Of a stretch of DNA of 64,000 nucleotides, positions 5,285 to 21,302 are shown piece after piece. The DNA comes from Pseudomonadota bacterium. Lineage in GTDB: Bacteria > Pseudomonadota > Alphaproteobacteria > Sphingomonadales > SMXR01. The position numbers and the translations under genes were made by a program. How positions within the stretch are numbered: position 1 is the first letter of the stretch; every line of letters begins with the position of its first letter. The stretch lies in contig JACZSK010000001.1 of NCBI GenBank assembly GCA_022574255.1, positions 20,117 through 84,116 of the forward strand, read 5' to 3'. The notes under the pieces are model-generated. The model saw nothing but the letters and a program-made list of their open reading frames with translations. It was not told the DNA's origin and did not search any database.

Positions 5285-6019
5285 ATGGATCGCACAACGC
5301 TGGCACTATTGACTCACGAGTTGAGAAATCAGTGCATTTATACAGAAGCCGCATTCCGCGTGTTTAACCAGTCGCTTGAGCAAAAGGCTGTGTCGGGGGC
5401 ATTCTTCGCAGCCCAATCCATACTGCTTTCCGCCAGCCAGATCGGCTGCATGTTATGGCCGCCGCGCGCGCGCTCACGAAAACGCGGCGAGGCCTTCCGC
5501 AAGGTCCTGCAACTGCCGGAAAAGCACCCGTTAAACGACAAGCGGCTGCTGGCGATCTGGGAACATTCCGATGAAAAATTTGACGATTGGGTGGGGCGCA
5601 CCAAGGGGCAAAGGATTGTCTTTGACCATGTGGGTCCGTTGTCTGATTTCGCTGACAGCAGCGTCACCGAGGAAAGCGTCTACCGGCTTTATGATCCGGT
5701 CGACATGCTGTTGTATTTTCGCGGTGACGGATTCAAATTGCAGGCAATAGCGAACGCGATTTCAGACATCTATTCGCGCGCCAATTCTCTGCATCGCCAG
5801 TTTTTCCCCGATCAGCAGCCCCGAGACCAGCAGACTGATGACGCCAGGCAGGCCAGTGGCGCAAAAAAAGTCTCCGTCGGCACCAGCAAGGACAAAGCAA
5901 AAAAGAAACCGCCAGCGAAGAAGAAGGGTAAATCCCCGGCAGCAAAATCTTCTCCCAAGAAATCTCCCCCTAAAAAATCAACGGCCAAAAAGAGCGTTAA
6001 AAGCAAGAAGGCTAAGTGA
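5285..6019 (+). CDS. hypothetical protein with an alpha-helical N-domain (weak HEPN-like R-x4-6-H motifs) and a lysine-rich histone-H1-like C-terminal tail
   Basis: Track ORF 5249 (TTG). ATG 5285 (MDRTTLALL) is preferred, with ggaag upstream. The last ~55 aa are KKVSVGTSKDKAKKKPPAKKKGKSPAAKSSPKKSPPKKSTAKKSVKSKKAK. Motifs KRLLAIWEH and QRIVFDH are present. Confidence 0.6.
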   Translation: MDRTTLALLTHELRNQCIYTEAAFRVFNQSLEQKAVSGAFFAAQSILLSASQIGCMLWPPRARSRKRGEAFRKVLQLPEKHPLNDKRLLAIWEHSDEKFDDWVGRTKGQRIVFDHVGPLSDFADSSVTEESVYRLYDPVDMLLYFRGDGFKLQAIANAISDIYSRANSLHRQFFPDQQPRDQQTDDARQASGAKKVSVGTSKDKAKKKPPAKKKGKSPAAKSSPKKSPPKKSTAKKSVKSKKAK

Positions 6020-6050
6020 CCGCGCCAATGCGTCGAAATACCGGCGCGCC

Positions 6051-6346
6051 AGGGTCAGGACCCATTAATCCGATCCATTATGCGCCGCTCGTTTTCGGCT
6101 GGGACAGGAGGAGCGACGCAGGAAACCTCCATGGTTTTCAAGTCGTTCCGACGCCTGTCCAGCCGAAAAGGAACATCGCCCTTTCGTTGTTTGGCCGGAA
6201 AGAACCGGCCGGGGAGGGTTTGTCAAGGAAGACCGACTGCCGCGGATACAGCCCTTGAAAGGGTGTGGCCCTGTCCGCGGCCTGTATTCTTGCATTCGGT
6301 CTTCCCTGGCAAACAGAATTGAACCGGATTAATGGGTCCTGACCCT
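6051..6346. repeat. structured ~296-bp element A closed by a perfect 22-bp inverted repeat (MITE-like or structured ncRNA)
   Basis: agggtcaggacccattaatccg (6051-6072) is the exact reverse complement of cggattaatgggtcctgaccct (6325-6346). Internal helices: 6096-6108/6154-6165, 6193-6198/6205-6210, 6227-6236/6296-6305, 6239-6246/6274-6281. The termini resemble those of element B. Confidence 0.6.
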
Positions 6347-6356
6347 AGGGCATGGA

Positions 6357-6635: not shown

Positions 6636-8159
6636 TTATGGAAGCAAGCCTCCGCCGCCACCACCGCCGCTGCCCCCGCCGCCATTGGCCGGGGTGGTGA
6701 TTTCGCCGACATAAATCCTGTTCACATCGTCCGCTACATTGGTCTTGAGCGTGGTTGCAACATAGGTCACCGCCCCACCCTTCAGGCCGGGGTCATCGCT
6801 ATAGACGTAATATTTGGTTACGAATGAAAGACCGGTTATGGCGCCGGAATTGTATACGACACTGGCATGGCCATAGTGCCTGGTATGGGATGCGATGGTG
6901 ATCTTGGCGCTAGCCCCGTTGTCGGTTGCAGTCAGTGGGTTGCTGCTCACCACCGTCAGGGCGCCCGCAACATTGACCGGCGGCAGCGCCGTCTGGTTTG
7001 TGCATCGCTCGACCCGCACGACTGTCGCCATCGCCGGGATCACCTGCTCGTCCACTGTCTCGTCCCAGGCATAGATCGCGTCAGCTTCCTCGATCAACGT
7101 CATGGGAAAGACGATGCCCGCATTCCCGTTTTCGTCACTGGCGACTTGCATCCGCCAATCCGCGACCCGCATCTTCTGATCTGTAAGTCCCAGTGGCGTA
7201 TAGGAAAAGGTGATGCTGTCCATTGCCTGGTCCTGCAGGGCAATGGGTCCGAAGCTTCCTGAGACCATCTTGTCCAGGCGCGAACGCTCCAGCGCGATTT
7301 TAGCCAGCCGCTGCGCCATCACACCCGAAGTCGTGAAGGGCAGATTGACATCCATCCACAACTCGTCGCCGCCATCTTCCGTGACATAGCCCGAATTTAT
7401 TCGCGGGATAATGTCGCGCGGCTGATACTCGGCGCTTACATCTGCATAAACGCCCCGAACCGCATTGGCCTTCTCGGAGCGTGATTTCTTGGAGCGATAT
7501 TCGATGCCGCTGAGCATGTGGGTTTCATCGCGGGACTTGACCGCGGCCCGCGACACTGCCGCGTAGATTCGCCATCTCCCCCCTTGGAAAACAACCACAC
7601 CACCCATGCTGGACGCCAGGGCTTCGAGGTTTTCGGTGTGAGAGCGCCGAGGATCAATGAACCCGTTGCAGGTATATCTTTTTTCCGAACCGCCTCCATT
7701 CAGATCAACGCTTTCATCGCAGAAATTCGCCTCGGCGATTATATTCGCCCAATCGATCCGGGCGCTGTCCACCCCGACGCCGGCAATGATCTGACCGTCA
7801 TAAGACGTGGTCAGAGAATTCGCGACCCTGATGCCGACCAGGTAATCAGCAATACACAGGGCGGGATTGTCGGACCATTCCCAGGTGCTGTGATCGGCCA
7901 GACGGTGATTGCTCGACCCGCCATCTGACCCGCCGTTGGTGCCGTCCTTTCGCGGGTCGTACAGCTTGCGGCCCTTGATGGTGCAGACCGGGTTCTTTAT
8001 GCCATCCGGTCCGCGCTCGCGGATCGAGCGTTTGAAGGCCCCGGGGGCAACCATGTCGCGGCCTTCATCGAGGTTGGAAAAAACACTGGCGTATCCCTCG
8101 AAGACGCCTTTGTCGTTCACCGACTTCACTTCGAAGCCGGCGTTGAGAATGTCGGTCAT
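6636..8159 (-). CDS. chimeric ORF: HK97/GTA prohead protease N-terminus (aa 1-55) fused in frame to the C-terminal part of a host-specificity/tail protein (RcGTA g15 / lambda J-like)
   Basis: aa 1-55 read FEGYASVFSNLDEGRDMVAPGAFKRSIRERGPDGIK, the protease family signature, lacking the following ML.QHD block. The ORF then continues NPVCTIKGRKLYDPRKDG...STWEWSDNPALCIADYL, the Phage-tail_3/g15-type signature. It ends with GGGGSGGGGGGG. Confidence 0.7.
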   Translation of the reverse strand: MTDILNAGFEVKSVNDKGVFEGYASVFSNLDEGRDMVAPGAFKRSIRERGPDGIKNPVCTIKGRKLYDPRKDGTNGGSDGGSSNHRLADHSTWEWSDNPALCIADYLVGIRVANSLTTSYDGQIIAGVGVDSARIDWANIIAEANFCDESVDLNGGGSEKRYTCNGFIDPRRSHTENLEALASSMGGVVVFQGGRWRIYAAVSRAAVKSRDETHMLSGIEYRSKKSRSEKANAVRGVYADVSAEYQPRDIIPRINSGYVTEDGGDELWMDVNLPFTTSGVMAQRLAKIALERSRLDKMVSGSFGPIALQDQAMDSITFSYTPLGLTDQKMRVADWRMQVASDENGNAGIVFPMTLIEEADAIYAWDETVDEQVIPAMATVVRVERCTNQTALPPVNVAGALTVVSSNPLTATDNGASAKITIASHTRHYGHASVVYNSGAITGLSFVTKYYVYSDDPGLKGGAVTYVATTLKTNVADDVNRIYVGEITTPANGGGGSGGGGGGGLLP

Positions 8160-8182
8160 GTGCGGGTTCCCGGGTTAGGTGG

Positions 8183-8506
8183 TTACTGGGTAAAGAAAGG
8201 CAGTTTCAGCCTGACCGCGAGGCCGGCCATAAGCGCCAGGATCAGCGCCGTGCTGATCCAGCGGATGAGAGTGCGCCAGGCGGTGCGCCGGGCGTCACGC
8301 CAGGCCTCGAGCAGATTTCTCAGCTCACGGATATCGTTGCCTGCCGCTTCGTCCTGCAGGCCGCAAAGGGCCAACGCCCGGGCCGCCCCGGTTGAACTGG
8401 CTTCCTCGACAATGGCGCGGAGAGTCACCAGATCAGCGCCTTCATCGCGGGCCTCATCGACCAGCGCGGTGAGCAGTGCCAGATGGCGGTTTTGATCAAT
8501 GCTCAT
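8183..8506 (-). CDS. small membrane-anchored protein in the GTA g3.5 position (DUF6127-like)
   Basis: 107 aa. Its start overlaps the portal stop (ATGA at 8503-8506). C-terminal TM helix ISTALILALMAGLAV. The position between portal and protease matches RcGTA g3.5. The family name is from memory. Confidence 0.55.
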   Translation of the reverse strand: MSIDQNRHLALLTALVDEARDEGADLVTLRAIVEEASSTGAARALALCGLQDEAAGNDIRELRNLLEAWRDARRTAWRTLIRWISTALILALMAGLAVRLKLPFFTQ

Positions 8507-9774
8507 TCAGCCCGCTCCTTGGCCTGCTCCATGGCCTGCTCCGCCAGAATACCGGGCAGCGCGTCACCGCCCGCAACGGGGTCGAAGCCCAGCGCCTGGC
8601 GTTTCTCGTTGGTTGTCAGAAAGGCGGCGCCACCGACTCGTTTCCACAGGGCCTCGCGCTCAAACTGCAAGGCGGGAATCGCGTCCCGGTCAAAGTCGAG
8701 CCGCAAGTCGTCGCCAAAGCGCGCGGTAAGGAACGCATTCAAAGTGGCGACGGTTTTCTGCAGCAGCGGCAGCAGGGTCAGCCGCCACAGGGCGCGGTTG
8801 GCCTCCTGATAATTGGAATAGGTATTGTCGCCGGGGATGCCGAGCAGCATGGGCGGCACGCCGAAGGCCAGCGCGATTTCGCGGGCCGAGACATGCTTCG
8901 ACTGGATGAACTCCATGTCCGAGGGCGAAAAGGCGATCTGCTGCCACTTCAGCCCGCCCTCCAGCAAAAATGGCCGGCCGGCATTGCTGGCGCCCTGATG
9001 CTGTTCTTCAAGTTCTGCTTTGAGGCGGGTGAATTGCTCCTCGCTGAGGGTTCCGGGCCGTCCCTCGCCGGGCTCGAAGATCAGCGCACCGGAAGGCCGC
9101 GCCGCGTTATCCAGCAAAGACTTGTTCCAGCACTGTGCTGAATTATGGATGTCGATTCCAAAGGCACAGGCCTCAAGCAAGGAAAGCCCGTAAAAATCAT
9201 CCAGCGGATGAAAAGTGCGGAAATGAACAATGGGCGACTGCCCCGATTTGGCATCAACCGGAAAAGCGTGGGTGCGCCCGCCGACCTTATACTCAAACCG
9301 GATGGGCCAGCCGGAAGAACCGGGCACGATTTTCATCCTGTCGGGACGTAGCATATACAATTCGCCCGGAACGCCGCGCGCATCGTCGACAATTTCCAGA
9401 TACGCGTTGCCGGCAATTTGCAGGAAAGAGAACAAAGCCTCGATAAGCTCGTTTCCCGACTGCAGGGGATTCGGTCGGCCCAGCAAGTCGAGCAGCGGGT
9501 GGCGGGTGATCCGCTCGCCACCCCGATAAAGGACCATGGGCACGGCGGCAGCCGATTCGGCGACCATGCGCACAGAGCGGTTGGCGATGACGTTCTTCCG
9601 GTAGCCCTCGCGCACCAACTGCTCATAGCTTCGCCCGGTCCAACTGGGCGCCGCCAGACCAATCCAGGCGGTTTCCCTCCCCTGCCCAAGCAGCTTGCTG
9701 ACAGCGCTGGCCTTTTGTTCCGGACCCTCGCGGAAATTGAAAATGCGCCTGATAGTTTTGCCAATGGGATTCAT
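8503..9774 (-). CDS. phage/GTA portal protein (HK97 family)
   Basis: 423 aa. Length, position after terL and conserved blocks (FGVPPMLLGIPGDNTYSNYQEANRALW) are typical of HK97-family portals and GTA g3. Confidence 0.9.
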   Translation of the reverse strand: MNPIGKTIRRIFNFREGPEQKASAVSKLLGQGRETAWIGLAAPSWTGRSYEQLVREGYRKNVIANRSVRMVAESAAAVPMVLYRGGERITRHPLLDLLGRPNPLQSGNELIEALFSFLQIAGNAYLEIVDDARGVPGELYMLRPDRMKIVPGSSGWPIRFEYKVGGRTHAFPVDAKSGQSPIVHFRTFHPLDDFYGLSLLEACAFGIDIHNSAQCWNKSLLDNAARPSGALIFEPGEGRPGTLSEEQFTRLKAELEEQHQGASNAGRPFLLEGGLKWQQIAFSPSDMEFIQSKHVSAREIALAFGVPPMLLGIPGDNTYSNYQEANRALWRLTLLPLLQKTVATLNAFLTARFGDDLRLDFDRDAIPALQFEREALWKRVGGAAFLTTNEKRQALGFDPVAGGDALPGILAEQAMEQAKERAE

Positions 9775-9952
9775 CTGCAGGTCTCCTTATTTATGCCCAG
9801 TTTGTGACTTCAAATGTCTGTTGTGGGGGCTTCAGCCGACGGGTGGCCGCAACCGCGCAATTCTGTTGGCAACAGGGCCTCGATTGCCCTATGGTCGCCC
9901 CCGGTCGCGGCGCTGCTGCAAAGCGGGCGCCCGAAATGGTCAAAAAAAATCA

Positions 9953-10315
9953 GTGAGAAAATTCGTGAAACGCTTGTTGATCAGATTGCTTTTCGTCGCC
10001 GGACTGTTTTCCAGCCAGACTGCCCTTGCTGAAGATTGCGGCTTTCCGCCGGCCGACCCGCCCCCGGTGCCTGAAGGCACCAGAACCGACAGAGAGAGCA
10101 TGGATGCGGGGGTCAGGGCCGTGCGCGAATATTCGATCCAGATGAATGCCTATTTCGACTGCCTGCAGTTGAGGCGTGATGAGTGGTTTTACAATATGGA
10201 CCGCGACCAGCAGGCGCGCTGGATAGAGGATTTTAACGAAGTCGTCGATCATCTGACCGAAATCGAAACCGAAATGAACGAGCAGATTCGCGCCTTCAAC
10301 AATCGCCCGACCTAA
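9953..10315 (+). CDS. small secreted two-Cys protein encoded antisense between terL and portal
   Basis: Track ORF 9695..10315. Plausible starts are GTG 9953 or 9965. Signal peptide KRLLIRLLFVAGLFSSQTALA/EDCGF, then a helical acidic C-terminus. The start is uncertain. Confidence 0.45.
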   Translation: MRKFVKRLLIRLLFVAGLFSSQTALAEDCGFPPADPPPVPEGTRTDRESMDAGVRAVREYSIQMNAYFDCLQLRRDEWFYNMDRDQQARWIEDFNEVVDHLTEIETEMNEQIRAFNNRPT

Positions 10316-10327
10316 ACTGCCCTCACT

Positions 10328-11647
10328 TTAAAGAGCCCTGACCCGAGGATTCCTGTCCTGGCCCCGGGCGAGATCGCTGATCGCCCAGACCAGCGCGTCC
10401 AGCCTGTCAGGACTGCCATCTGCCGCATCGCCGGTGTAGCTGCGCAATTGATCTTCCAATGCCTTGAAGCAACCCACGTGATGCACAAACCCACGCTCAT
10501 AAAGCGCCGCCACCGGTTCGGCGCGGGTGATCTTGCCGCGGCTGGCACGCACCGCCCTGTAGGCCACATCCGGCGCCTCCTGGCGCAGCAGGGCTTCAAT
10601 CAGGTCGCCGCCCTGGTTCACTTCTGCCACCAGTCTGTCGGCTTCGAATTCCTGGTAGGCCGCCAGGGCCCGGTGCATCCACTGGTGCGGGCGAAGGCCC
10701 TGGCAGGATCTGTCCGCCAGAACGTAAAAATGATCATCGAGCGCCACACCGGCAACAATAATGCCGCACAGGTTCGCCGCCTCGCCGTGCGAAACCGGCG
10801 GATCGATCGCCACGATAACGCGGCGCAACGGGGGCGCTTTGCCGACGCGCGCGGTGTCGATCATTTCGTCGGTCCACAGCGCACCGGGCACATCTTCCAG
10901 AATCAAGCCGTCCAGTTCCTGGCGGCCCAGCCGCGTGCCGCCATAGAGGCGCGATACCTGGTCGACAAAGGTCGGCGGAAGATGCGCCGCATTCTCGAAA
11001 GTACTGCCCGCGGTTACAACCGTTGTCGGATCGCTGACCAGAGCTTTCAATAGCGCAATGGGTCGCGGCGTTGTAGTCACCACCACCCGGGGCCGGCTGC
11101 CCAACCGCAGACCCAGCAACAGGTTCGACCAGCTTGCCTCGGGCGCACCCCATTTTGCCAGTTCGTCACACCAGGCGATAGCGTGCTGGGGACCGCGAAG
11201 CTGGTCCGGCTCTTCGCTGGAATAGAGATGCGCGACGATGCCGTTTGGCCAGACCATGCGGCGGCGTGAAATTTCGAACTTTGGCCGGTGGTCGGGGCGC
11301 GAGACAAGCTGCAGCCCGCTCTCGCCTTCGACCATAACGTCACGCCCGTCAGCGATGGTCTGCGAAACCAGGGCTATGCGCTCTGGCGCGCCGGCGGGGG
11401 CCACCAAGGGCGACGCCCCCTCGACGCTGGCGCGCACCCACTCGGCGCCCAGACGTGTTTTCCCAAAGCCACGGCCCGCGGTTACCAGCCAGCAGAACCA
11501 GTCTCCCGGCGGCGGTTTCTGTTTCTCCCGCGCCCAGAATTCCCAGTCATAGAGAAGCGCCTCACAATCCTCGTCCGAAAGCTCCGACAACAGCTCCGGT
11601 AGCGCGCCACCATCGAGGCGCGCTACATTCTCGGCGATCGACGACAT
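10328..11647 (-). CDS. terminase large subunit (GTA g2-like)
   Basis: 439 aa with Walker-A-like TAGRGFGKT and a C-terminal nuclease-type region. Overlaps the upstream terS-like ORF by 1 nt. Confidence 0.9.
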   Translation of the reverse strand: MSSIAENVARLDGGALPELLSELSDEDCEALLYDWEFWAREKQKPPPGDWFCWLVTAGRGFGKTRLGAEWVRASVEGASPLVAPAGAPERIALVSQTIADGRDVMVEGESGLQLVSRPDHRPKFEISRRRMVWPNGIVAHLYSSEEPDQLRGPQHAIAWCDELAKWGAPEASWSNLLLGLRLGSRPRVVVTTTPRPIALLKALVSDPTTVVTAGSTFENAAHLPPTFVDQVSRLYGGTRLGRQELDGLILEDVPGALWTDEMIDTARVGKAPPLRRVIVAIDPPVSHGEAANLCGIIVAGVALDDHFYVLADRSCQGLRPHQWMHRALAAYQEFEADRLVAEVNQGGDLIEALLRQEAPDVAYRAVRASRGKITRAEPVAALYERGFVHHVGCFKALEDQLRSYTGDAADGSPDRLDALVWAISDLARGQDRNPRVRAL

Positions 11648-12120
11648 CAGGTTTCAGAAGCCTTGCGCCGGCTCGCATTCGACATCGCATTCAGCTTGGC
11701 CAAAAGGCGCTCCCTGGGGCTCGTATTCGCAAGGTTTGCCTCGGAAAGGTCACTGATCGCCGCGGTCGACTTGCCGTCTCCGAAAACGTCCTTGCGCCGC
11801 CCGCGCAGCAGGAACATGCCCAGATTATCGCTATAAGTAACACTGGCACCACATTTCTTGCCGCCGTAATAAACAGCTTTTTCTACGCCCTCGACGGCGC
11901 GGCGCCTGAGCGCACCCTCCAGATCATCCAGCGCCCCCTGAAGCGCGGAATCCCATTCTTCCCGGAAGGCCCTATTCTTCCTGCGACGGCCATAGGCTTG
12001 CGCCCGCGAAACATCGGCTGCCCGCGCGCCGGCGCTGACGTTGCCGGTACTGCGCAGGACGTCGAGAAAAACCGCCTGCTTTCGCTTCGTCCATTTCATG
12101 CCTCCGGGGTCCAGACTCAT
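11647..12120 (-). CDS. terminase small subunit-like DNA-binding protein
   Basis: 157 aa. WTKRKQAVFLDVLRSTGNVSAGARAADVSRAQAYGRRRKNRAFREEWDSAL is the typical terS HTH plus REEW block. It is the first gene of the cluster and is coupled to terL. Confidence 0.6.
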   Translation of the reverse strand: MSLDPGGMKWTKRKQAVFLDVLRSTGNVSAGARAADVSRAQAYGRRRKNRAFREEWDSALQGALDDLEGALRRRAVEGVEKAVYYGGKKCGASVTYSDNLGMFLLRGRRKDVFGDGKSTAAISDLSEANLANTSPRERLLAKLNAMSNASRRKASET

Positions 12121-12324
12121 TAATGCGAATCAATTCGCCGCCTCAAAAACTGGAATTCAGGTGATTTCGGTGTGTAGCCCTGGCGCGCGGCTCACGCGAA
12201 CATCAATGGCCCCGGCTCAAATGCGGGCTCAATTGCGTGGCCCACTTCCCGGGCATGACAGAAACTATACCGATAATCGTCACGCTCGTCAAGTTGTTTT
12301 TACCTATTTGGTTAAAATCAATCG

Positions 12325-12380
12325 TTAGACCTGATTTAGACCTGCCAATCACACGGTGTTTAAAGATTAAATTAAACACC
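12325..12380. promoter_or_regulatory. direct repeat TTAGACCTG x2 (11-bp phasing) plus palindrome GGTGTTTAA-N8-TTAAACACC in an AT-rich leader
   Basis: TTAGACCTG at 12325-12333 and 12336-12344. The palindrome arms lie within 12355-12380. Located 200-260 bp upstream of the terS-like start (12120) in the lowest-GC tract of the window. Confidence 0.35.
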
Positions 12381-12502
12381 AATCAAAGTATTCATAAGTA
12401 TTTCCATCTTTTAAATCTGTCTGGATTTGACGCCTCTAGGCAATAAACGTATTATTCAAGCATAGAGTCGGAAGTTTAATTTTATTATTTAGGCATTAGG
12501 TA

Positions 12503-15566: not shown

Positions 15567-15755
15567 ATGGCGCAAATGACCGTTACGCTTAAGGCCGAAA
15601 TGAAGCGTGGCAGCTTTTACTGGGTTGCGACTGTCGACGCCGAGAGCAAGGATGAGGCCATCGTTGCGGCGGAAAATCTTTTCCAGGCGGAAATGGAAAA
15701 AGCCGGTGATTGGTCTTTCGCCGACTTCGAAGTTACTCTGGACCAGCCGGCCTGA
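15567..15755 (+). CDS. small hypothetical protein
   Basis: 62 aa, aaggaa RBS about 10 nt upstream, immediately after the ACAD gene. No family recognised. Confidence 0.4.
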   Translation: MAQMTVTLKAEMKRGSFYWVATVDAESKDEAIVAAENLFQAEMEKAGDWSFADFEVTLDQPA

Positions 15756-16299
15756 CCTCGATCTCCTGGCGCTCCGCCATGAGCTTTAACCTCTTCATGC
15801 TATGGGCCAGCCGGCGTTGCCCCTTCCAGCGCAACCAGGGCGCAATATACCTGTCAAAAAACCCCCGCAGCACTTTTCTTTCCCGATAGGTGACCAGGCT
15901 GGCCGCGCCGGTCGCGGACAGGGTTATCTCGATTTCGGTCGTAAAGGCCTCTGCTTCCTGCGTCACGCTCCAAAGCACCGGCGGCGTAAATTTCATCACC
16001 GTTTCCTCAAGTTCTATAACCGCGCGGTTGTCCCGGTACAGCACAAGCGAGCGGGCTCCGATGCCGGCCTGAAATTCACTCAGAGGCAAAATGCTGATCA
16101 TGCCGGCATGCCAGCCGGTTCGCTCTCCGGGCTGTGCGATAAACTCCCAAACCTGGTCTGGCCTCGCCTCTATACGCACTTCCGCCGCGAACTGCATGCC
16201 CTCGTGGACATGCGCCAACCACCCACGCAGCAGAAACGCGCAGGCCACCAGGGCAAGCAGCGATATTACTTTGCGTTCGTAAGCGGTGTAGCCGAACAT
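15733..16299 (-). CDS. SRPBCC (START/polyketide-cyclase-like) family protein with an N-terminal TM helix
   Basis: 188 aa. N-terminal VISLLALVACAFLL, then a pattern typical of SRPBCC ligand-binding proteins. Confidence 0.6.
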   Translation of the reverse strand: MFGYTAYERKVISLLALVACAFLLRGWLAHVHEGMQFAAEVRIEARPDQVWEFIAQPGERTGWHAGMISILPLSEFQAGIGARSLVLYRDNRAVIELEETVMKFTPPVLWSVTQEAEAFTTEIEITLSATGAASLVTYRERKVLRGFFDRYIAPWLRWKGQRRLAHSMKRLKLMAERQEIEVRPAGPE

Positions 16300-16465
16300 G
16301 GCTGTTTGTGCCTTCCTCTTTTTGGCCGGATGCCCGGATCCGGAATATGCCTTGCATCATTATGCCGCGGAAAGCGCGTGATCAAGAGGTCAAGGCGTCG
16401 AGACCCAAAGGCAATTGTCGGGCAGCCAGGCGATAGGCGGTTAACCCGGATTTCATGATTCGCGA

Positions 16466-16760
16466 CTAGGGTCTGGACTCAATTACCGGTGAGGGTTGTG
16501 CCCCCATTTCTTACGGGCTAAGGCCCGGGGCCAAAATTGGCCGGAGCGAGGAGAAAGCGGTGAAGAATAGCACTCTATCTGAGGCGATTTTGACGCTGTT
16601 CCGGCCGATTTGGGCGCGGTCCAATTGGATTGGCCCGAAAAGCCCGGCGAAAGGCGTCAAAAATCCTCGCCGATATGCACCATCGCCTTCGGTTTTCTCC
16701 TGTTTTCCGGGCCTTTCGGAGCCAACACAGCTCCACCCGGTAATTGGGTTCAGACCCTAG
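16466..16760. repeat. structured ~295-bp element B with 24-bp terminal inverted repeats, related to element A
   Basis: ctagggtctggactcaattaccgg (16466-16489) against the reverse complement of ccggtaattgggttcagaccctag (16737-16760) matches at 22/24. Internal long-range helices: 16549-16556/16694-16701 and 16588-16596/16654-16662. The terminus shares about 17/24 positions with element A (CTAGGGTC core). Confidence 0.6.
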
Positions 16761-17693
16761 GCTTGACGAGAGATATCAGCAGTGGCTTTAGCAAACTCTG
16801 TCCATAGGGGGACGGACAAATGCAAAAAAGATGCAAGACTTCAACATCACGGATTTCTGGCGGTAAAGCCGGTAAGGTCCAGGATATCAACGACGTCGAC
16901 AGCAGGCGCCGCGCTGGTGATCTGAATTACAGTGGTGCCCTCGCCACGCAGCTGGCGAAGCATTTTGGCCTGGAGAGCGCCAAAAGGGCTTGTGTGGAGA
17001 ATCGATGGGACGCTGTTTTGTCAGCTCTGCAAGGCAGGTGACCTGACCAGGGTAGCGCGTAGGCGCAAAATTTCCGCTTCTCTTCCGCGCGCCCGTTCCC
17101 GCCAATTTCGCCAGATTCCAGATTCCCGGTAACAGCACGAAAGCGAAGCCCAGCATGCCGCGCAGGCGACAGGCGTCCAAATAGCACCCTGGTGAGTGAC
17201 CACTATGTGGGCACCCCTTGCCATAGCTTCATAACCTGCGTGATTTAGACACAAGCATTTTTTCCTTGGCAACCAACACTTTTCTTGGAACATATGCGCC
17301 TGTCGGCTATGGTCGTCGGGCTGAGGATGTTGGTTTCGCGGATATTTGGGGAAATCCATCATTGGCTGTTAGTTATGCGCGACGGGGCATCCTCGACTCC
17401 TAAACGGGAATCGGGTATGAGCGCGGATAACCAGAATAAAGGTGCTTTAGGGCGCTTCGTTGGCAGCGTTGGGAGATTAACTAATTTCCGTCGCATTGAA
17501 TGAATCGGCCGGCAGGCTGATGCTTGAGGTATTGTTCCAAATGCATGTGACGGATTGATTTTCTGACAATGTCTGAATAGTAACCGAATCGCGGGGTTGG
17601 CTCCGGCTGAAAACTGGAGTGACCTGGCGGAACAGCAGCGAAGTAATGCGGTATAGGCCGCTTGAATTGACTGTTATTCCAATGGAAAGAAAA

Positions 17694-18484: not shown

Positions 18485-19894
18485 ATGAAAAGAATAATCA
18501 CAGCATTTGTTGCGCTTGCCCTGTTTGGTGGCGCAAGTCTGACCATGGCCCAGGAGGGCGCAGCGCCCGACCAGGCCGCCCCCGATACCGCGAGCAATCT
18601 GGATCAGCTGCTGCAACAGGTCCGCCAGGGCAAGCGCGTGGAAGCGCGCCAGCACCGCGAACGTGAGGCTCGATTTATTTCCCAGAAAAACGACCAGGCG
18701 CGGCTCAAGCGTGAAGCCGAGCAGACAAAGGCCAACGAAGAGCGGCGCAGTGATCAGCTTGAAGCCAATTTCGAGCGCAACAAGACGGCACTTGTCAGGC
18801 TGGACCAAAGATTGCGCGAGCGGCTGGGCAATTTGAGTGAATTGTTTGGTGTGCTCCAGCAGGTTGCTGGTGACGCGCGCGGCAATTTTTCAAGCTCCAT
18901 TGTCAGCACGCAATTTCCGAATCGTACGGAGGCGCTTGATACGCTGATCGAAAAAGCGTCGGCCGGTTCTGATTTGCCATCGATTGAAGAGATGGAGAAT
19001 CTGTGGTTCGAGATGCACCGCGAAATGACTGAGTCCGGCAAGGTAGTGCGCTTCCAGTACCAGGTCAGAACCCCGGACGGCCTTCCACAGGACGTTGAAC
19101 TGGTCCGCGTTGGCGCCTTCAATCTGGTTTCGGACGGAAAATATTATAATTATACCTTCTCGGCGGACAGCTCCAGCGTCGACGAGCTTGGCCGCCAGCC
19201 TTCGGGCCGTTTTACCGGCACAATCGACGATCTGGAAAGTGCCGACCCCGGCGAGCTGGTTACCTTCGGTATTGATCCGACGCGCGGCCAGATCCTTTCG
19301 ATGCTGCTGAGGGTTCCCGGCCTGGTTGATCGCTGGCACCAAGGTGGGTTCGTCGGCTACATTATTACTTTGCTTGGCGTGATTGGTGTCATGCTGGTTA
19401 TCGAACGCTGGCTTTACTTGAGCAGTCAGAACCGCAAGGTGCGCCGCCAGATCCGCGAAAGCACGCCCAGCACCGACAACTCCCTGGGCCGCGTGCTTCA
19501 GGTCTACGCCGACAATAAAAACGTCGATGTGGAGACGCTGGAGTTGAAGCTGGACGAGGCAATCCTGAAAGAAACGCCGGCGCTGGAGCGCTCTTTGGTG
19601 TTGATCAAGATTATCTCGGCTGTGGCGCCGCTGTTTGGCCTGCTGGGCACGGTTACGGGCATGATCGTGACCTTCCAGGCGATTGTTCTGTTCGGCACCG
19701 GCGACCCGACCGTGATGGCGAATGGTATCTCGCAAGCCCTGGTTACCACCGTTCTTGGTCTGGCGGTTGCTATCCCCACGCTGCTGTTGCACAGCATTGT
19801 GGCTGGCCAGAGCAAGGGCATCATCCATATTCTGGAGGAACAGAGCGCCGGTATCATTGCGGTCCATGCAGAGAAAGCCGGATCGCATGCTTAA
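18485..19894 (+). CDS. large MotA/TolQ/ExbB proton-channel family protein (TtpC-like)
   Basis: 469 aa with a signal peptide, a long periplasmic coiled-coil domain, and a C-terminal MotA/ExbB channel (LFGLLGTVTGMIVTFQAI...ALVTTVLGLAVAIP). Confidence 0.85.
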   Translation: MKRIITAFVALALFGGASLTMAQEGAAPDQAAPDTASNLDQLLQQVRQGKRVEARQHREREARFISQKNDQARLKREAEQTKANEERRSDQLEANFERNKTALVRLDQRLRERLGNLSELFGVLQQVAGDARGNFSSSIVSTQFPNRTEALDTLIEKASAGSDLPSIEEMENLWFEMHREMTESGKVVRFQYQVRTPDGLPQDVELVRVGAFNLVSDGKYYNYTFSADSSSVDELGRQPSGRFTGTIDDLESADPGELVTFGIDPTRGQILSMLLRVPGLVDRWHQGGFVGYIITLLGVIGVMLVIERWLYLSSQNRKVRRQIRESTPSTDNSLGRVLQVYADNKNVDVETLELKLDEAILKETPALERSLVLIKIISAVAPLFGLLGTVTGMIVTFQAIVLFGTGDPTVMANGISQALVTTVLGLAVAIPTLLLHSIVAGQSKGIIHILEEQSAGIIAVHAEKAGSHA

Positions 19895-20415: not shown

Positions 20416-20829
20416 ATGCGTAAATTTGCCAAACCGGAAGAAGAAGCCGAGATCAACATGACGCCAATGCTGGACATCGTGTTCATCATGCTGATCTTCT
20501 TCATCGTCACCGCCTCTTTCGTGAAAGAACAGGGGCTGGATATACAACAGCCACCGGACGCACCGCCGCCACCGCCCGATGAGAAAAAGCAGAATATAGT
20601 GATACGGGTGGATAATAATAACCAGGTGTGGATATGGAATGATCGCCGCCGGGTCGATATCCGCCAGGTGCGCCCGAATATTGAGCGCCTGCACGCGGCA
20701 TTCCCGGAGGGCGTGGTGGTCATTCAGGCGGCGCCGGATGCCAAAACCGGGGTCATCGTACAGATTTACGATCAAGCGCTTGCCGTCGACAAAAAAATGG
20801 GGGTGTCGGTGACGCGCTATGAGCCTTAA
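20416..20829 (+). CDS. exbD: ExbD/TolR biopolymer transport protein
   Basis: 137 aa with INMTPMLDIVFIMLIFFIVTASF, the canonical ExbD N-terminus. Confidence 0.9.
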   Translation: MRKFAKPEEEAEINMTPMLDIVFIMLIFFIVTASFVKEQGLDIQQPPDAPPPPPDEKKQNIVIRVDNNNQVWIWNDRRRVDIRQVRPNIERLHAAFPEGVVVIQAAPDAKTGVIVQIYDQALAVDKKMGVSVTRYEP

Positions 20830-20900: not shown

Positions 20901-21302
20901 ATGCGCGACCACGCACAACAGGATGAAGACGCCGAGATTAACATGACGCCGATGCTGGACATCGTGTTCATCATGCTGATTTTCTTCATCGTCACCGCAG
21001 CCTTCGTTAAGGAGGCAGGCATCCAGATTACAAAGCCCGAAGCGGCAATGTCGATCCAGAAGCCTCGCACAAGCATTATCATCGGCATCAGCGATGCCGG
21101 CGAAATATGGATCAACCACAAAAAGGTCGATCTCAAGTCGGTTCGCCCGGTGCTGGAAAGGCTGATCGCCGAGAATCCGCGCGGAACGGTCATTATCCAG
21201 GCTGATAAAGATGCAAAGGCCGGGCTGACGCTGGACGTGCTGGATGCCGCCCGCGCTGCCAAGGCCGCGGAGGTTGCCATTTCAACGAGGAAGCCATCAT
21301 GA
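20901..21302 (+). CDS. exbD: ExbD/TolR biopolymer transport protein (second paralog)
   Basis: 133 aa with INMTPMLDIVFIMLIFFIVTAAF and ggagagtgggg RBS. Confidence 0.9.
   Translation: MRDHAQQDEDAEINMTPMLDIVFIMLIFFIVTAAFVKEAGIQITKPEAAMSIQKPRTSIIIGISDAGEIWINHKKVDLKSVRPVLERLIAENPRGTVIIQADKDAKAGLTLDVLDAARAAKAAEVAISTRKPS

What the first reader, a model, noticed from the sequence alone, without database searches (positions are those of the whole stretch)
16466..16760. Element B: second member of the same ~295-bp inverted-repeat family
Its termini, ctagggtctggactcaattaccgg and the reverse complement of ccggtaattgggttcagaccctag, match at 22/24. They share about 17/24 positions with element A's termini, including the CTAGGGTC core and an AATTA/ATTAA block. 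The length is nearly identical (295 vs 296 bp). Long-range helices are present at 16549-16556/16694-16701 and 16588-16596/16654-16662. The interiors of A and B look largely different by eye while size and termini are kept. That fits either a diverged mobile family or an RNA with conserved architecture and variable loops.
Basis: seen in the sequence. Interest (0 to 1): 0.65.

Follow-up and report, generated by a model that had tools for sequence, protein, structure and literature searches.

The report
Non-autonomous mini-transposon (MITE), IS5/IS427 type
Element B is a 289-bp miniature inverted-repeat transposable element: it has lost its transposase gene, carries the ends of an IS5-family (IS427-group, ISKpn12-like) insertion sequence, and sits in a duplicated TA. 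This is an ordinary kind of selfish DNA, although its nested hairpins are unusually well kept across relatives.

Summary
Window 16466-16760 carries 35-nt terminal inverted repeats. Its first ~24 nt resemble those of element A (6049-6348), while the interiors cannot be aligned.

B is a MITE, for these reasons:
- The termini GGGTCWGRACYCAWTWA are those of 842-853-bp IS5-family/IS427-group insertion sequences (ISKpn12 and relatives; DUF4096 + DDE_Tnp_1 in two frames).
- B is flanked by TA on both sides, and a ~90%-identical strain in a marine metagenome has the empty site with one TA.
- Depth inside B is roughly 10-170 times that of its flanks.
- More than 100 similar 265-305-bp elements occur in other genomes, mostly Alphaproteobacteria. 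They are flanked by TA within YTAR, and two still hold transposase fragments.

B is 70-74% identical over its full length to elements in other MAGs. A belongs to a different family with the same kind of ends.

The RNA reading is not supported. There is no Rfam match and no B interior in true RNA-seq contigs. Pairing shows no strand asymmetry (G-U about equal to A-C).

One feature is more than routine. In three families the TIR stem and two internal hairpin domains are kept through many two-sided changes. B's own best fold is a different, single long hairpin.

Verdict: a new member of a known kind, of modest interest.

The parts
16466..16760 (.).
   Evidence: I4. Depth is roughly 10-170x the flanks between 16464 and 16792, and copies diverge from the flanks at 16464-16468 and 16759-16763.
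16469..16757 (+). B core, GGGTC...GACCC, 289 bp. The + orientation is the one in which the start-like motif reads forward. It is 70-74% identical over its full length to elements in L026, L087 and L113-L115.
16467..16468 (.). Left copy of the duplicated target TA.
   Evidence: The empty allele reads TCGCG-CT-TA-GGCTTG with a single TA (joint 16464->16758 with 'CT' between). Among 74 long-TIR elements, 55 are flanked TA/TA.
16758..16759 (.). Right copy of the duplicated target TA.
16469..16500 (+). Left terminal inverted repeat. The first 18 nt, GGGTCTGGACTCAATTAC, match the ISKpn12 left end (IRL) at 14/18.
16726..16757 (-). Right terminal inverted repeat.
16549..16562 (+). AGGAGAAAGCGGTG, an RBS-plus-start-like motif conserved in the B family. 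It lies about 70 nt from the end in relatives, where IS427-group elements have their orfA start at 60-74 nt. It may be a relic of the transposase start. It is also one arm of the helix with 16694-16701.
   Evidence: The relic reading is inference.
16560..16760 (+). 66-codon ORF that runs to the element end, with its stop codon formed by the TA flank. It is judged incidental.
   Evidence: The ORF is open in 4 of 6 relatives and frameshifted in 2. dN/dS is 0.74-0.89.
6049..6348 (.). Element A (core 6052-6345, 294 bp): a MITE of another family with ISKpn12-type ends, flanked CA...TA. It fills the gap between the convergent stop codons at 6019 and 6357.
   Evidence: (I3). The 26 nt at its right end match the IRL of a full-length IS in L121 at 96%. 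Empty sites are seen in X6 and X3. Full-length relatives are L017, L067, L088 and L002.
6174..6348 (.). The right part of A is repeated at about 6-25x flank depth. The left part (6051-6170) is at single-copy depth, so A is a mosaic.
12106..12123 (+). Weak TIR-like site GGGGTCCAGACTCATTAA (3 mismatches), with a poor 12-nt partner 292 nt away. It could be a decayed end or chance.

Best explanation

B has no transposase gene. Its ~20-30-bp terminal inverted repeats are the binding and cleavage sites of an ISKpn12-like DDE transposase. In the full-length IS that enzyme is encoded in two overlapping frames, the layout that is read by programmed frameshifting in this IS group. The enzyme would be supplied in trans by a full-length IS in the same cell.

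Insertion goes into a TA inside a YTAR tetranucleotide, and the TA is duplicated. B entered the intergenic region between the divergent genes 15733-16299 (-) and about 16820 (+) after the split from a ~90%-identical sister strain, and it is one of tens of copies.

What is shown: the ends, the flanks, the empty site, the copy number, the relatives, and the identity of the ends with a transposase-bearing IS.

What is inferred: that this transposase mobilises B, that a partner IS is or was in this genome, and any effect on neighbouring genes.

The internal hairpins are best read as strand-symmetric DNA palindromy kept in the lineages that go on proliferating.
For: **Ends**
- The IS in E. coli plasmid NZ_CP042866 is 842 bp and annotated 'IS5-like element ISKpn12 family transposase'. 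It reads ccTA-GGGTCAGGACCCATTGAT...AATGAGTCCTGACCC-TAgc.
- Its two frames hit DUF4096 (7e-23) and DDE_Tnp_1 (7e-19).
- 23 relatives in IMG/VR were examined; wherever a left end could be located it is preceded by TA. One has IRL GGGTCAGGACCCATTAATCAGG, which matches A's right end over 26 nt at 96%.

**Published features of the IS427 group**
- Length 832-865 bp, IR 12-21 bp, DR 2 bp in nearly all members, and two ORFs with a frameshift (PMC3281130).

**Target**
- 55 of 74 long-TIR elements are flanked TA/TA.
- The outer bases vary independently as Y and R: CTAG 19, TTAA 12, CTAA 12, TTAG 8.

**Mobility**
- A 4463-bp contig at depth 172 in X3 joins 16464 to 16758 and leaves one TA. X6 shows the same joint.
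- A also has empty alleles.

**Copy number**
- Depth inside B against flanks is 113-666 vs 7-8 (X1) and 3,400-29,000 vs 172 (X3).
- Assemblies break at B's edges.

**Origin by deletion**
- The 283-bp element in L094 holds orfA residues 1-31 fused to orfB residues 97-129.
- The element in L041 holds orfB residues 53-129.

**Spread**
About 90 have extended TIRs.

**No coding or RNA-family signal**
- tblastn finds no transposase in the window.
- The internal ORF has dN/dS of 0.74-0.89.
- No Rfam family matches.
Against: - No full-length IS with B-type ends (GGGTCTGRACTCAATTA) was found. B matches the ISKpn12 IRL at only 14/18.
- No IS427-group transposase is in this window, and the rest of the host genome could not be searched.
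- A's flanks are CA/TA rather than TA/TA, and its empty allele carries CA.
- The many compensatory changes in internal hairpins are not predicted by a simple decaying-MITE model.
- Transposition was not observed. Presence/absence was compared between strains about 10% diverged.
Confidence: 0.9

Rival explanations
1. B is primarily a structured non-coding RNA gene or cis-RNA element. The inverted termini form a closing stem, and the interior forms conserved hairpin domains with variable sequence.
For: - B folds far better than shuffles: z -8.6 on the + strand and -7.0 on the - strand. A gives -12.4 and -11.7.
- The B-family consensus structure is 92.8% paired. 32 of 100 pairs change on both sides, against 13.7 +/- 2.4 in shuffles and 6-11 in slid controls.
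- The Rhizobiales family gives 97% paired and 35 of 87 pairs, against 19 +/- 1.9. The A family gives 34 of 102.
- An RNA-seq contig holds a different element with B-type ends at depth 73.
Against: - Among pairs predicted on both strands, G-U cells are about as frequent as A-C cells: 16/17, 12/20 and 26/28 in three families. No strand is favoured.
- Both strands fold almost equally well.
- No Rfam family matches at gathering score in the window or in 17 loci.
- True RNA-seq runs from the same study have no contig over B's interior.
- No promoter-like or terminator-like site lies in 16250-16900.
- B fits the family consensus poorly: -106 kcal/mol against its own -156.
- The TA flanks, empty sites and transposon ends need the mobile-element explanation anyway.
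Confidence: 0.04
2. B is a MITE of the IS630/Tc1-mariner type. Such elements also duplicate TA, and IS630 itself prefers CTAG.
For: B has TA flanks inside CTAG. TA duplication is general in the superfamily. RUP of pneumococcus is a precedent: a TA-targeting MITE tied to IS630-Spn1 (PMC2229807).
Against: - The termini match the ends of elements whose transposase is DUF4096 + DDE_Tnp_1 (IS5 family), not an IS630/mariner enzyme.
- Short elements with these ends still contain IS5-family transposase fragments.
- IS427-group elements are themselves documented with 2-bp direct repeats.
Confidence: 0.04
3. B is a MITE whose nested hairpins are kept without selection, by a mutational process. Template switching or intrastrand repair in quasi-palindromes copies one arm onto the other, which would look like compensatory change. 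This basis is from my own knowledge of quasipalindrome template-switch mutagenesis and was not tested here.
For: Pair conservation is strand-symmetric and dominated by Watson-Crick pairs. The B family shows multi-way complementarity: both a two-domain fold and a single long hairpin are largely paired across members, at 92.8% and 79.6%.
Against: Most two-sided changes separate subfamilies in different hosts rather than copies within a genome. That pattern also fits selection on master copies. No direct evidence exists for either process.
Confidence: 0.3

Closest known systems
IS5 family, IS427 group insertion sequences (ISKpn12; IS1248, ISPaes2, ISPha1 and others from Paracoccus)
   Same: - The terminal sequence is the same: GGGTCAGGACCCATT...
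- The target duplication is 2 bp (TA).
- The IS left end is always preceded by TA.
- In relatives of B, a start-like motif lies about 70 nt from the end, where these ISs start orfA.

   Different: B is 289 bp rather than about 840 bp and encodes no transposase. Its interior is unrelated to the IS beyond about 26 nt. B's ends differ from the ISKpn12 IRL at 4 of 18 positions.
Bacterial MITEs that duplicate or carry TA: Correia/NEMIS, ERIC/IRU and RUP (reviewed in PMC2229807 and PMC10969869)
   Same: All are small, carry TIRs, have TA at the termini, are mostly intergenic, occur in many copies, and give transcripts or strands that fold into very stable stem-loops. They are mobilised in trans by a related IS; RUP with IS630-Spn1 is the precedent.
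   Different: Those elements are about 100-200 bp and fold as one end-to-end stem-loop. This superfamily is about 265-305 bp, with a TIR stem enclosing two hairpin domains, and its partner IS belongs to the IS5/IS427 group. In the papers I read I found no published MITE tied to the IS427 group.
MITEPye1 of Paracoccus yeei (partner from the IS1182 family; PMC11578231)
   Same: It is an alphaproteobacterial MITE defined by TIR similarity to an IS, direct repeats, intergenic location and a long predicted stem-loop.
   Different: It has a different IS family and a different target duplication. It is present at only 1-3 copies per chromosome, whereas here there are tens of copies and a very wide host range.
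CIR repeats of Caulobacter and Brucella (Chen and Shapiro 2003, as summarised in PMC2229807)
   Same: They are alphaproteobacterial intergenic repeats whose predicted structure has two arms joined by a linker, conserved between species.
   Different: CIRs are about 110 bp and are defined by a GANTC methylation motif, not by transposon ends. I made no sequence comparison, so this is a resemblance by description only.

Membership tests
MITE (miniature inverted-repeat transposable element) | Small size and no transposase gene | tested here: met
   The core is 289 bp. tblastn with ISKpn12 orfA and orfB finds nothing in the window. The only ORF has dN/dS of 0.74-0.89.
MITE (miniature inverted-repeat transposable element) | Terminal inverted repeats | tested here: met
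   The arms are 35 nt and 80% complementary, and the outer 24 nt match 22/24.
MITE (miniature inverted-repeat transposable element) | Target-site duplication, shown against an empty site | tested here: met
   B is flanked TA...TA. The empty allele in X3 and X6 has a single TA. 55 of 74 related elements are flanked TA/TA. A is imperfect, with CA/TA.
MITE (miniature inverted-repeat transposable element) | Many copies per genome | tested here: met
   Depth is roughly 10-170x the flanks in four metagenomes, counting copies at least 85% alike. This is a community-level measure, not a count in one closed genome.
MITE (miniature inverted-repeat transposable element) | Ends shared with an autonomous IS | tested here: met
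   ISKpn12-like ISs carry the same termini. Against their IRL, A matches 17/18 and B matches 14/18.
MITE (miniature inverted-repeat transposable element) | Mobilisation in trans by that IS's transposase | not testable with these tools
   This needs a transposition assay.
Derivative of the IS5 family / IS427 group | 2-bp direct repeat, unlike the 4 bp typical of the IS5 group or the 9 bp of the IS903 group | tested here: met
   The outer Y and R bases vary independently. No element has identical 4-mers on the two sides. The published table gives DR = 2 for nearly all IS427-group elements.
Derivative of the IS5 family / IS427 group | Partner transposase with DUF4096 plus a DDE domain in two overlapping frames, in an element of about 830-865 bp | tested here: met
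   The IS at L111 3004-3845 is 842 bp. Its orfA hits DUF4096 and its orfB hits DDE_Tnp_1.
Derivative of the IS5 family / IS427 group | Intermediate forms that link the IS to the MITE | tested here: met
   The short elements in L094 and L041 retain orfA and orfB fragments. No such fragment is present in B or A themselves.
Derivative of the IS5 family / IS427 group | A cognate full-length IS in the same genome | not tested
   None lies in the 64-kb window.
IS630/Tc1-mariner-derived MITE | Ends shared with an IS630-family element | tested here: not met
   The ends belong to IS5-family elements. TA duplication alone does not discriminate.
Tn3-derived TIME | TIRs of about 38 bp starting GGGG, and a 5-bp duplication | tested here: not met
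   The TIR starts GGGTC and the duplication is 2 bp.
Curated structured RNA family (Rfam) | A match to a covariance model at its gathering score | tested here: not met
   Only tRNA and terC hits were found, and none lies on any element.
Structured RNA (generic) | Covariation that favours one strand, and a discrete transcript | tested here: inconclusive
   Covariation is strong but strand-symmetric. RNA-seq contigs hold no B interior, but the host is rare in those samples.

The most novel reading that the evidence does not exclude
This is a very widespread superfamily of IS427-group MITEs, about 265-305 bp long. It has many families across Alphaproteobacteria and is also present in this marine-sediment organism. 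In it, a specific architecture (a TIR stem enclosing a 5' and a 3' hairpin domain) would be under selection, kept by compensatory changes while the sequence turns over.

The fold could help the two ends of a short, stiff DNA to meet for transposase synapsis, for example by cruciform extrusion. Alternatively it could insulate or stabilise neighbouring transcripts, so that structured copies are the ones that proliferate or persist.

That would make structure, and not only the TIRs, part of what defines a successful MITE.
Probability: 0.2. Interest if true: 0.55.

Novelty: new member of a known kind. Interest (0 to 1): 0.3.

Why it matters
- **Annotation.** These two ~295-bp palindromic blocks should be masked as MITEs. 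They should not be called as genes or RNAs, and they explain why assemblies of this organism break here.
- **Population marker.** The presence/absence polymorphism marks recent divergence between co-occurring strains.
- **A possibly undescribed superfamily.** The same ends define a large, apparently undescribed MITE superfamily partnered with IS427-group elements such as ISKpn12. That IS moves between marine Rhodobacterales, Agrobacterium and clinical Klebsiella/E. coli plasmids.
- **Structure.** Strand-symmetric preservation of nested hairpins in three families is a usable dataset for asking whether MITE structure is selected or is produced by palindrome-specific mutation.

Tried and rejected
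- **Whole B against plasmids (blastn):** no match.
- **B-type terminus against plasmids:** only two chance-level hits.
- **Metagenome scan with a B-specific left end:** only 3 loci, so there was no large B-family sample and no parent IS.
- **TIR pair 1355 bp apart in L067 as a possible parent IS:** it encloses BolA-like and DnaJ-like ORFs, so it was a false lead.
- **Literature search for the terminus sequence:** the only relevant hit is a PCR primer in an Acidiphilium paper.
- **4-bp (YTAR) duplication as in the IS5 group:** rejected, because the left and right tetramers differ and Y and R vary independently.
- **Small protein encoded in B:** the ORF is open in 4 of 6 relatives, with its stop in the TA flank. 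It was rejected because dN/dS is 0.74-0.89 and amino-acid identity is what neutral change predicts.
- **Promoter or terminator function:** no consensus sites in 16250-16900.
- **Rfam:** nothing on any element.
- **Homology of the A or B interiors to full-length ISs:** none beyond the terminal ~26 nt.
- **Conserved size (~280 bp):** this cannot be claimed from the genome scan, because the pattern fixed the spacing. Only a few unbiased cases exist: L113-L115, L143 and the RNA-seq contig, all 265-271 bp.

Full report
**Observation.** The region 16466-16760 is bounded by inverted arms 16466-16500 and 16726-16760, 35 nt long and 80% complementary (I4). The outer 24 nt match 22/24 (read). Element A has arms 6046-6077 and 6320-6351, 32 nt and 88% complementary (I3). 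The shared terminus AGGGTCWGGACYCAWTWA occurs 7 times in the window at up to 3 mismatches against 0.29 expected, and the four best matches are the ends of A and B. A four-way alignment shows similarity only in the outer ~24 nt. Both strands of both elements fold far better than shuffled controls, with z between -7 and -12. Under equal definitions A is 300 bp (6049-6348), not 296. The cores are 289 bp (B) and 294 bp (A).

**Mobility and copy number.** Contigs of marine-sediment and marine metagenomes were laid on 15900-17300. They show flank depth of 5-8 (X1, X2) or 172 (X3), against roughly 10-170 times more between 16464 and 16792. Many contigs diverge from the window exactly at 16464-16468 and 16759-16763. 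A 4463-bp contig at depth 172 in X3, about 90% identical in the flanks, joins 16464 to 16758 with 'CT' in between. That gives TCGCG-CT-TA-GGCTTG, whereas the window reads TCGCG-AC-TA-[GGGTC...GACCC]-TA-GGCTTG. X6 shows the same joint. This is an empty site with one TA against a filled site with two. Independent assemblies that carry the neighbouring genes end at B's edge or inside it.

For A, the right part (6174-6348) is at about 6-25 times flank depth and the left part is at single-copy depth. Empty alleles exist in X6 (GCGCGCCA|GGGCATGG) and in the X3 strain. A's flanks are CA and TA, and the empty allele has CA. This is a small irregularity that I cannot explain.

**Relatives elsewhere.** The genome scan used AGGGTCWGRAC, 255-285 nt, then GTYCWGACCCT. 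Most are from Alphaproteobacteria: Brucella gallinifaecis and B. daejeonensis, Chelatococcus, Sphingopyxis, Novosphingobium, Roseibium and many MAGs. About 90 of 108 hits have long TIRs of the type GGGTCAGGACCCATTAAT. The rest look like chance matches. Among 74 elements with clearly extended TIRs, 55 are flanked TA/TA. The next base outward is Y on the left in 67 of 74 and R on the right in 69 of 74, in all four combinations: CTAG 19, TTAA 12, CTAA 12, TTAG 8. The target is therefore YTAR with duplication of TA only.

B is 70-74% identical over its whole length to elements in L026, L087 and L113-L115, and partly to L102. A aligns over its length with elements in L017, L067, L088 and L002. A and B are thus members of two different families that share one kind of end.

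**The partner.** A 36-nt terminus query hit 348 plasmid records. These include Klebsiella, Escherichia, Agrobacterium and marine Rhodobacterales. In E. coli plasmid NZ_CP042866 the match is the left end of an 842-bp element annotated 'IS5-like element ISKpn12 family transposase'. Its sequence is ccTA-GGGTCAGGACCCATTGATTTGAAC...AATGAGTCCTGACCC-TAgc. The same element is found in an Agrobacterium plasmid. Its two overlapping frames hit DUF4096 and DDE_Tnp_1.

Published IS427-group elements are 832-865 bp, with 12-21-bp IRs, 2-bp direct repeats in nearly all members and a frameshifted pair of ORFs (PMC3281130). Of twenty-three ISKpn12 relatives from IMG/VR, every one in which a left end could be located has TA before it, and orfA starts 60-74 nt inside. 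One has IRL GGGTCAGGACCCATTAATCAGG, which matches A's right end over 26 nt at 96%.

Two short elements are caught mid-way. L094 (283 bp) holds orfA residues 1-31 joined to orfB residues 97-129. L041 holds orfB residues 53-129. B matches the ISKpn12 IRL at 14/18, and no full-length IS with B-type ends was found. That is the main gap in the argument.

**Structure.** On seven B-family sequences RNAalifold gives a 31-bp TIR stem enclosing a 5' and a 3' hairpin domain. 92.8% of cells are paired, and 32 of 100 pairs changed on both sides, against 13.7 +/- 2.4 in shuffles and 6-11 when partners are slid. A 26-member Rhizobiales/Rhodobacterales family gives the same layout with 97% of cells paired and 35 of 87 pairs, against 19 +/- 1.9. 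The A family gives 34 of 102. This is more order than a decaying repeat should keep.

Three caveats apply:
- Among pairs predicted on both strands, G-U cells and A-C cells are equally common (16/17, 12/20 and 26/28), so no strand is favoured.
- B fits the family consensus poorly (-106 against its own -156 kcal/mol). The sequences therefore carry multi-way complementarity.
- The structures were derived from the same small alignments on which they were tested.

I read this as DNA-level palindromy, maintained either by selection on proliferating master copies or by palindrome-specific mutation. I do not read it as an RNA gene.

**RNA and coding tests.** No Rfam family matches any element. Three true RNA-seq metatranscriptomes from the study that holds the host have no contig over B's interior. 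One contig, at depth 73, carries B-type ends around an unrelated ~234-nt interior. No promoter-like or terminator-like sites lie around B. A 66-codon ORF from a conserved AGGAG-N6-ATG/GTG to the element end, with its stop in the TA flank, is open in 4 of 6 relatives. It evolves at dN/dS 0.74-0.89, so it is not a gene. Its start motif may be a relic of the transposase start, which is an inference.

**Context.** B lies between the start of a 188-aa gene on the minus strand (15733-16299, weak Polyketide_cyc2 hit) and plus-strand ORFs that lead to a DUF3450/ExbB/ExbD cluster. A fills the gap between two convergent stop codons at 6019 and 6357.

**Verdict.** B is a MITE of the IS5/IS427 (ISKpn12-like) type, and A is another family of the same superfamily. 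The kind is well known. In what I could read I found no description of this superfamily or its IS427 partnership, so I file it as a new member of a known kind. The strand-symmetric compensatory maintenance of hairpins is the one feature worth a follow-up.

Noticed in passing
window 6636-12100: A phage-like or GTA-like head-packaging cluster sits right next to element A. It includes Phage_portal (8503-9774, -), Terminase_6N/6C (10328-11647, -), DUF6127 and DUF6456, and a 507-aa protein with a Gly-rich tail (6636-8159, -). Pfam labels come from the matching ENA contig.
   Followed up: no
L052, L056, L021, L024, L027, L036, L047, L068, L086, L093, L095, L097 (element ends): About 12-13 of 108 elements carry a terminal stub such as GGGTCAGGACCC-TA-GGGTCAGGACCCATTAAT. 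The first 12 nt of the TIR are themselves a near-palindrome (GGGTC-AG-GACCC). The stub could be an excision footprint or a 12-bp 'both-ends' mini-insertion.
   Followed up: no
window 16467-16484 and 16741-16759, in RNA-seq runs X24 and X25: One metatranscriptome contig (472 nt at depth 73 in X24; 559 nt at depth 6.4 in X25) matches B only at both termini (100%), with about 234 nt of unrelated interior. It is a third interior type with B-type ends, and it is present in RNA.
   Followed up: partly
window 6051-6348: Element A is a mosaic. Depth is at single-copy level over 6051-6170 and about 6-25x over 6174-6348, and other copies diverge near 6192-6219. Its flanks are CA/TA and the empty allele has CA, so the right-hand TA is not a simple duplicate.
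   Followed up: partly
window 12106-12123 and 12280-12500: A weak TIR-like site (3 mismatches) has a poor partner 292 nt away. It lies next to a strikingly AT-rich stretch in an otherwise GC-rich window.
   Followed up: partly
window 20432-20528 and 20917-21013: A 97-nt direct repeat at 89% identity lies inside two adjacent small ORFs downstream of the ExbB-like gene (18485-19894). These are probably tandem ExbD paralogues of a TonB-type system.
   Followed up: no
plasmid records: ISKpn12-type ends are found on plasmids of Klebsiella (63 records), Pseudosulfitobacter (46), Agrobacterium (39) and Escherichia (28). The E. coli and Agrobacterium copies are 94-96% identical in protein. This points to recent spread of the IS across classes.
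   Followed up: no
window 16322: The ~90%-identical strain in X3 and X6 has an 8-nt insertion (TGGCCGGG) after 16322, in the intergenic region left of B.
   Followed up: no
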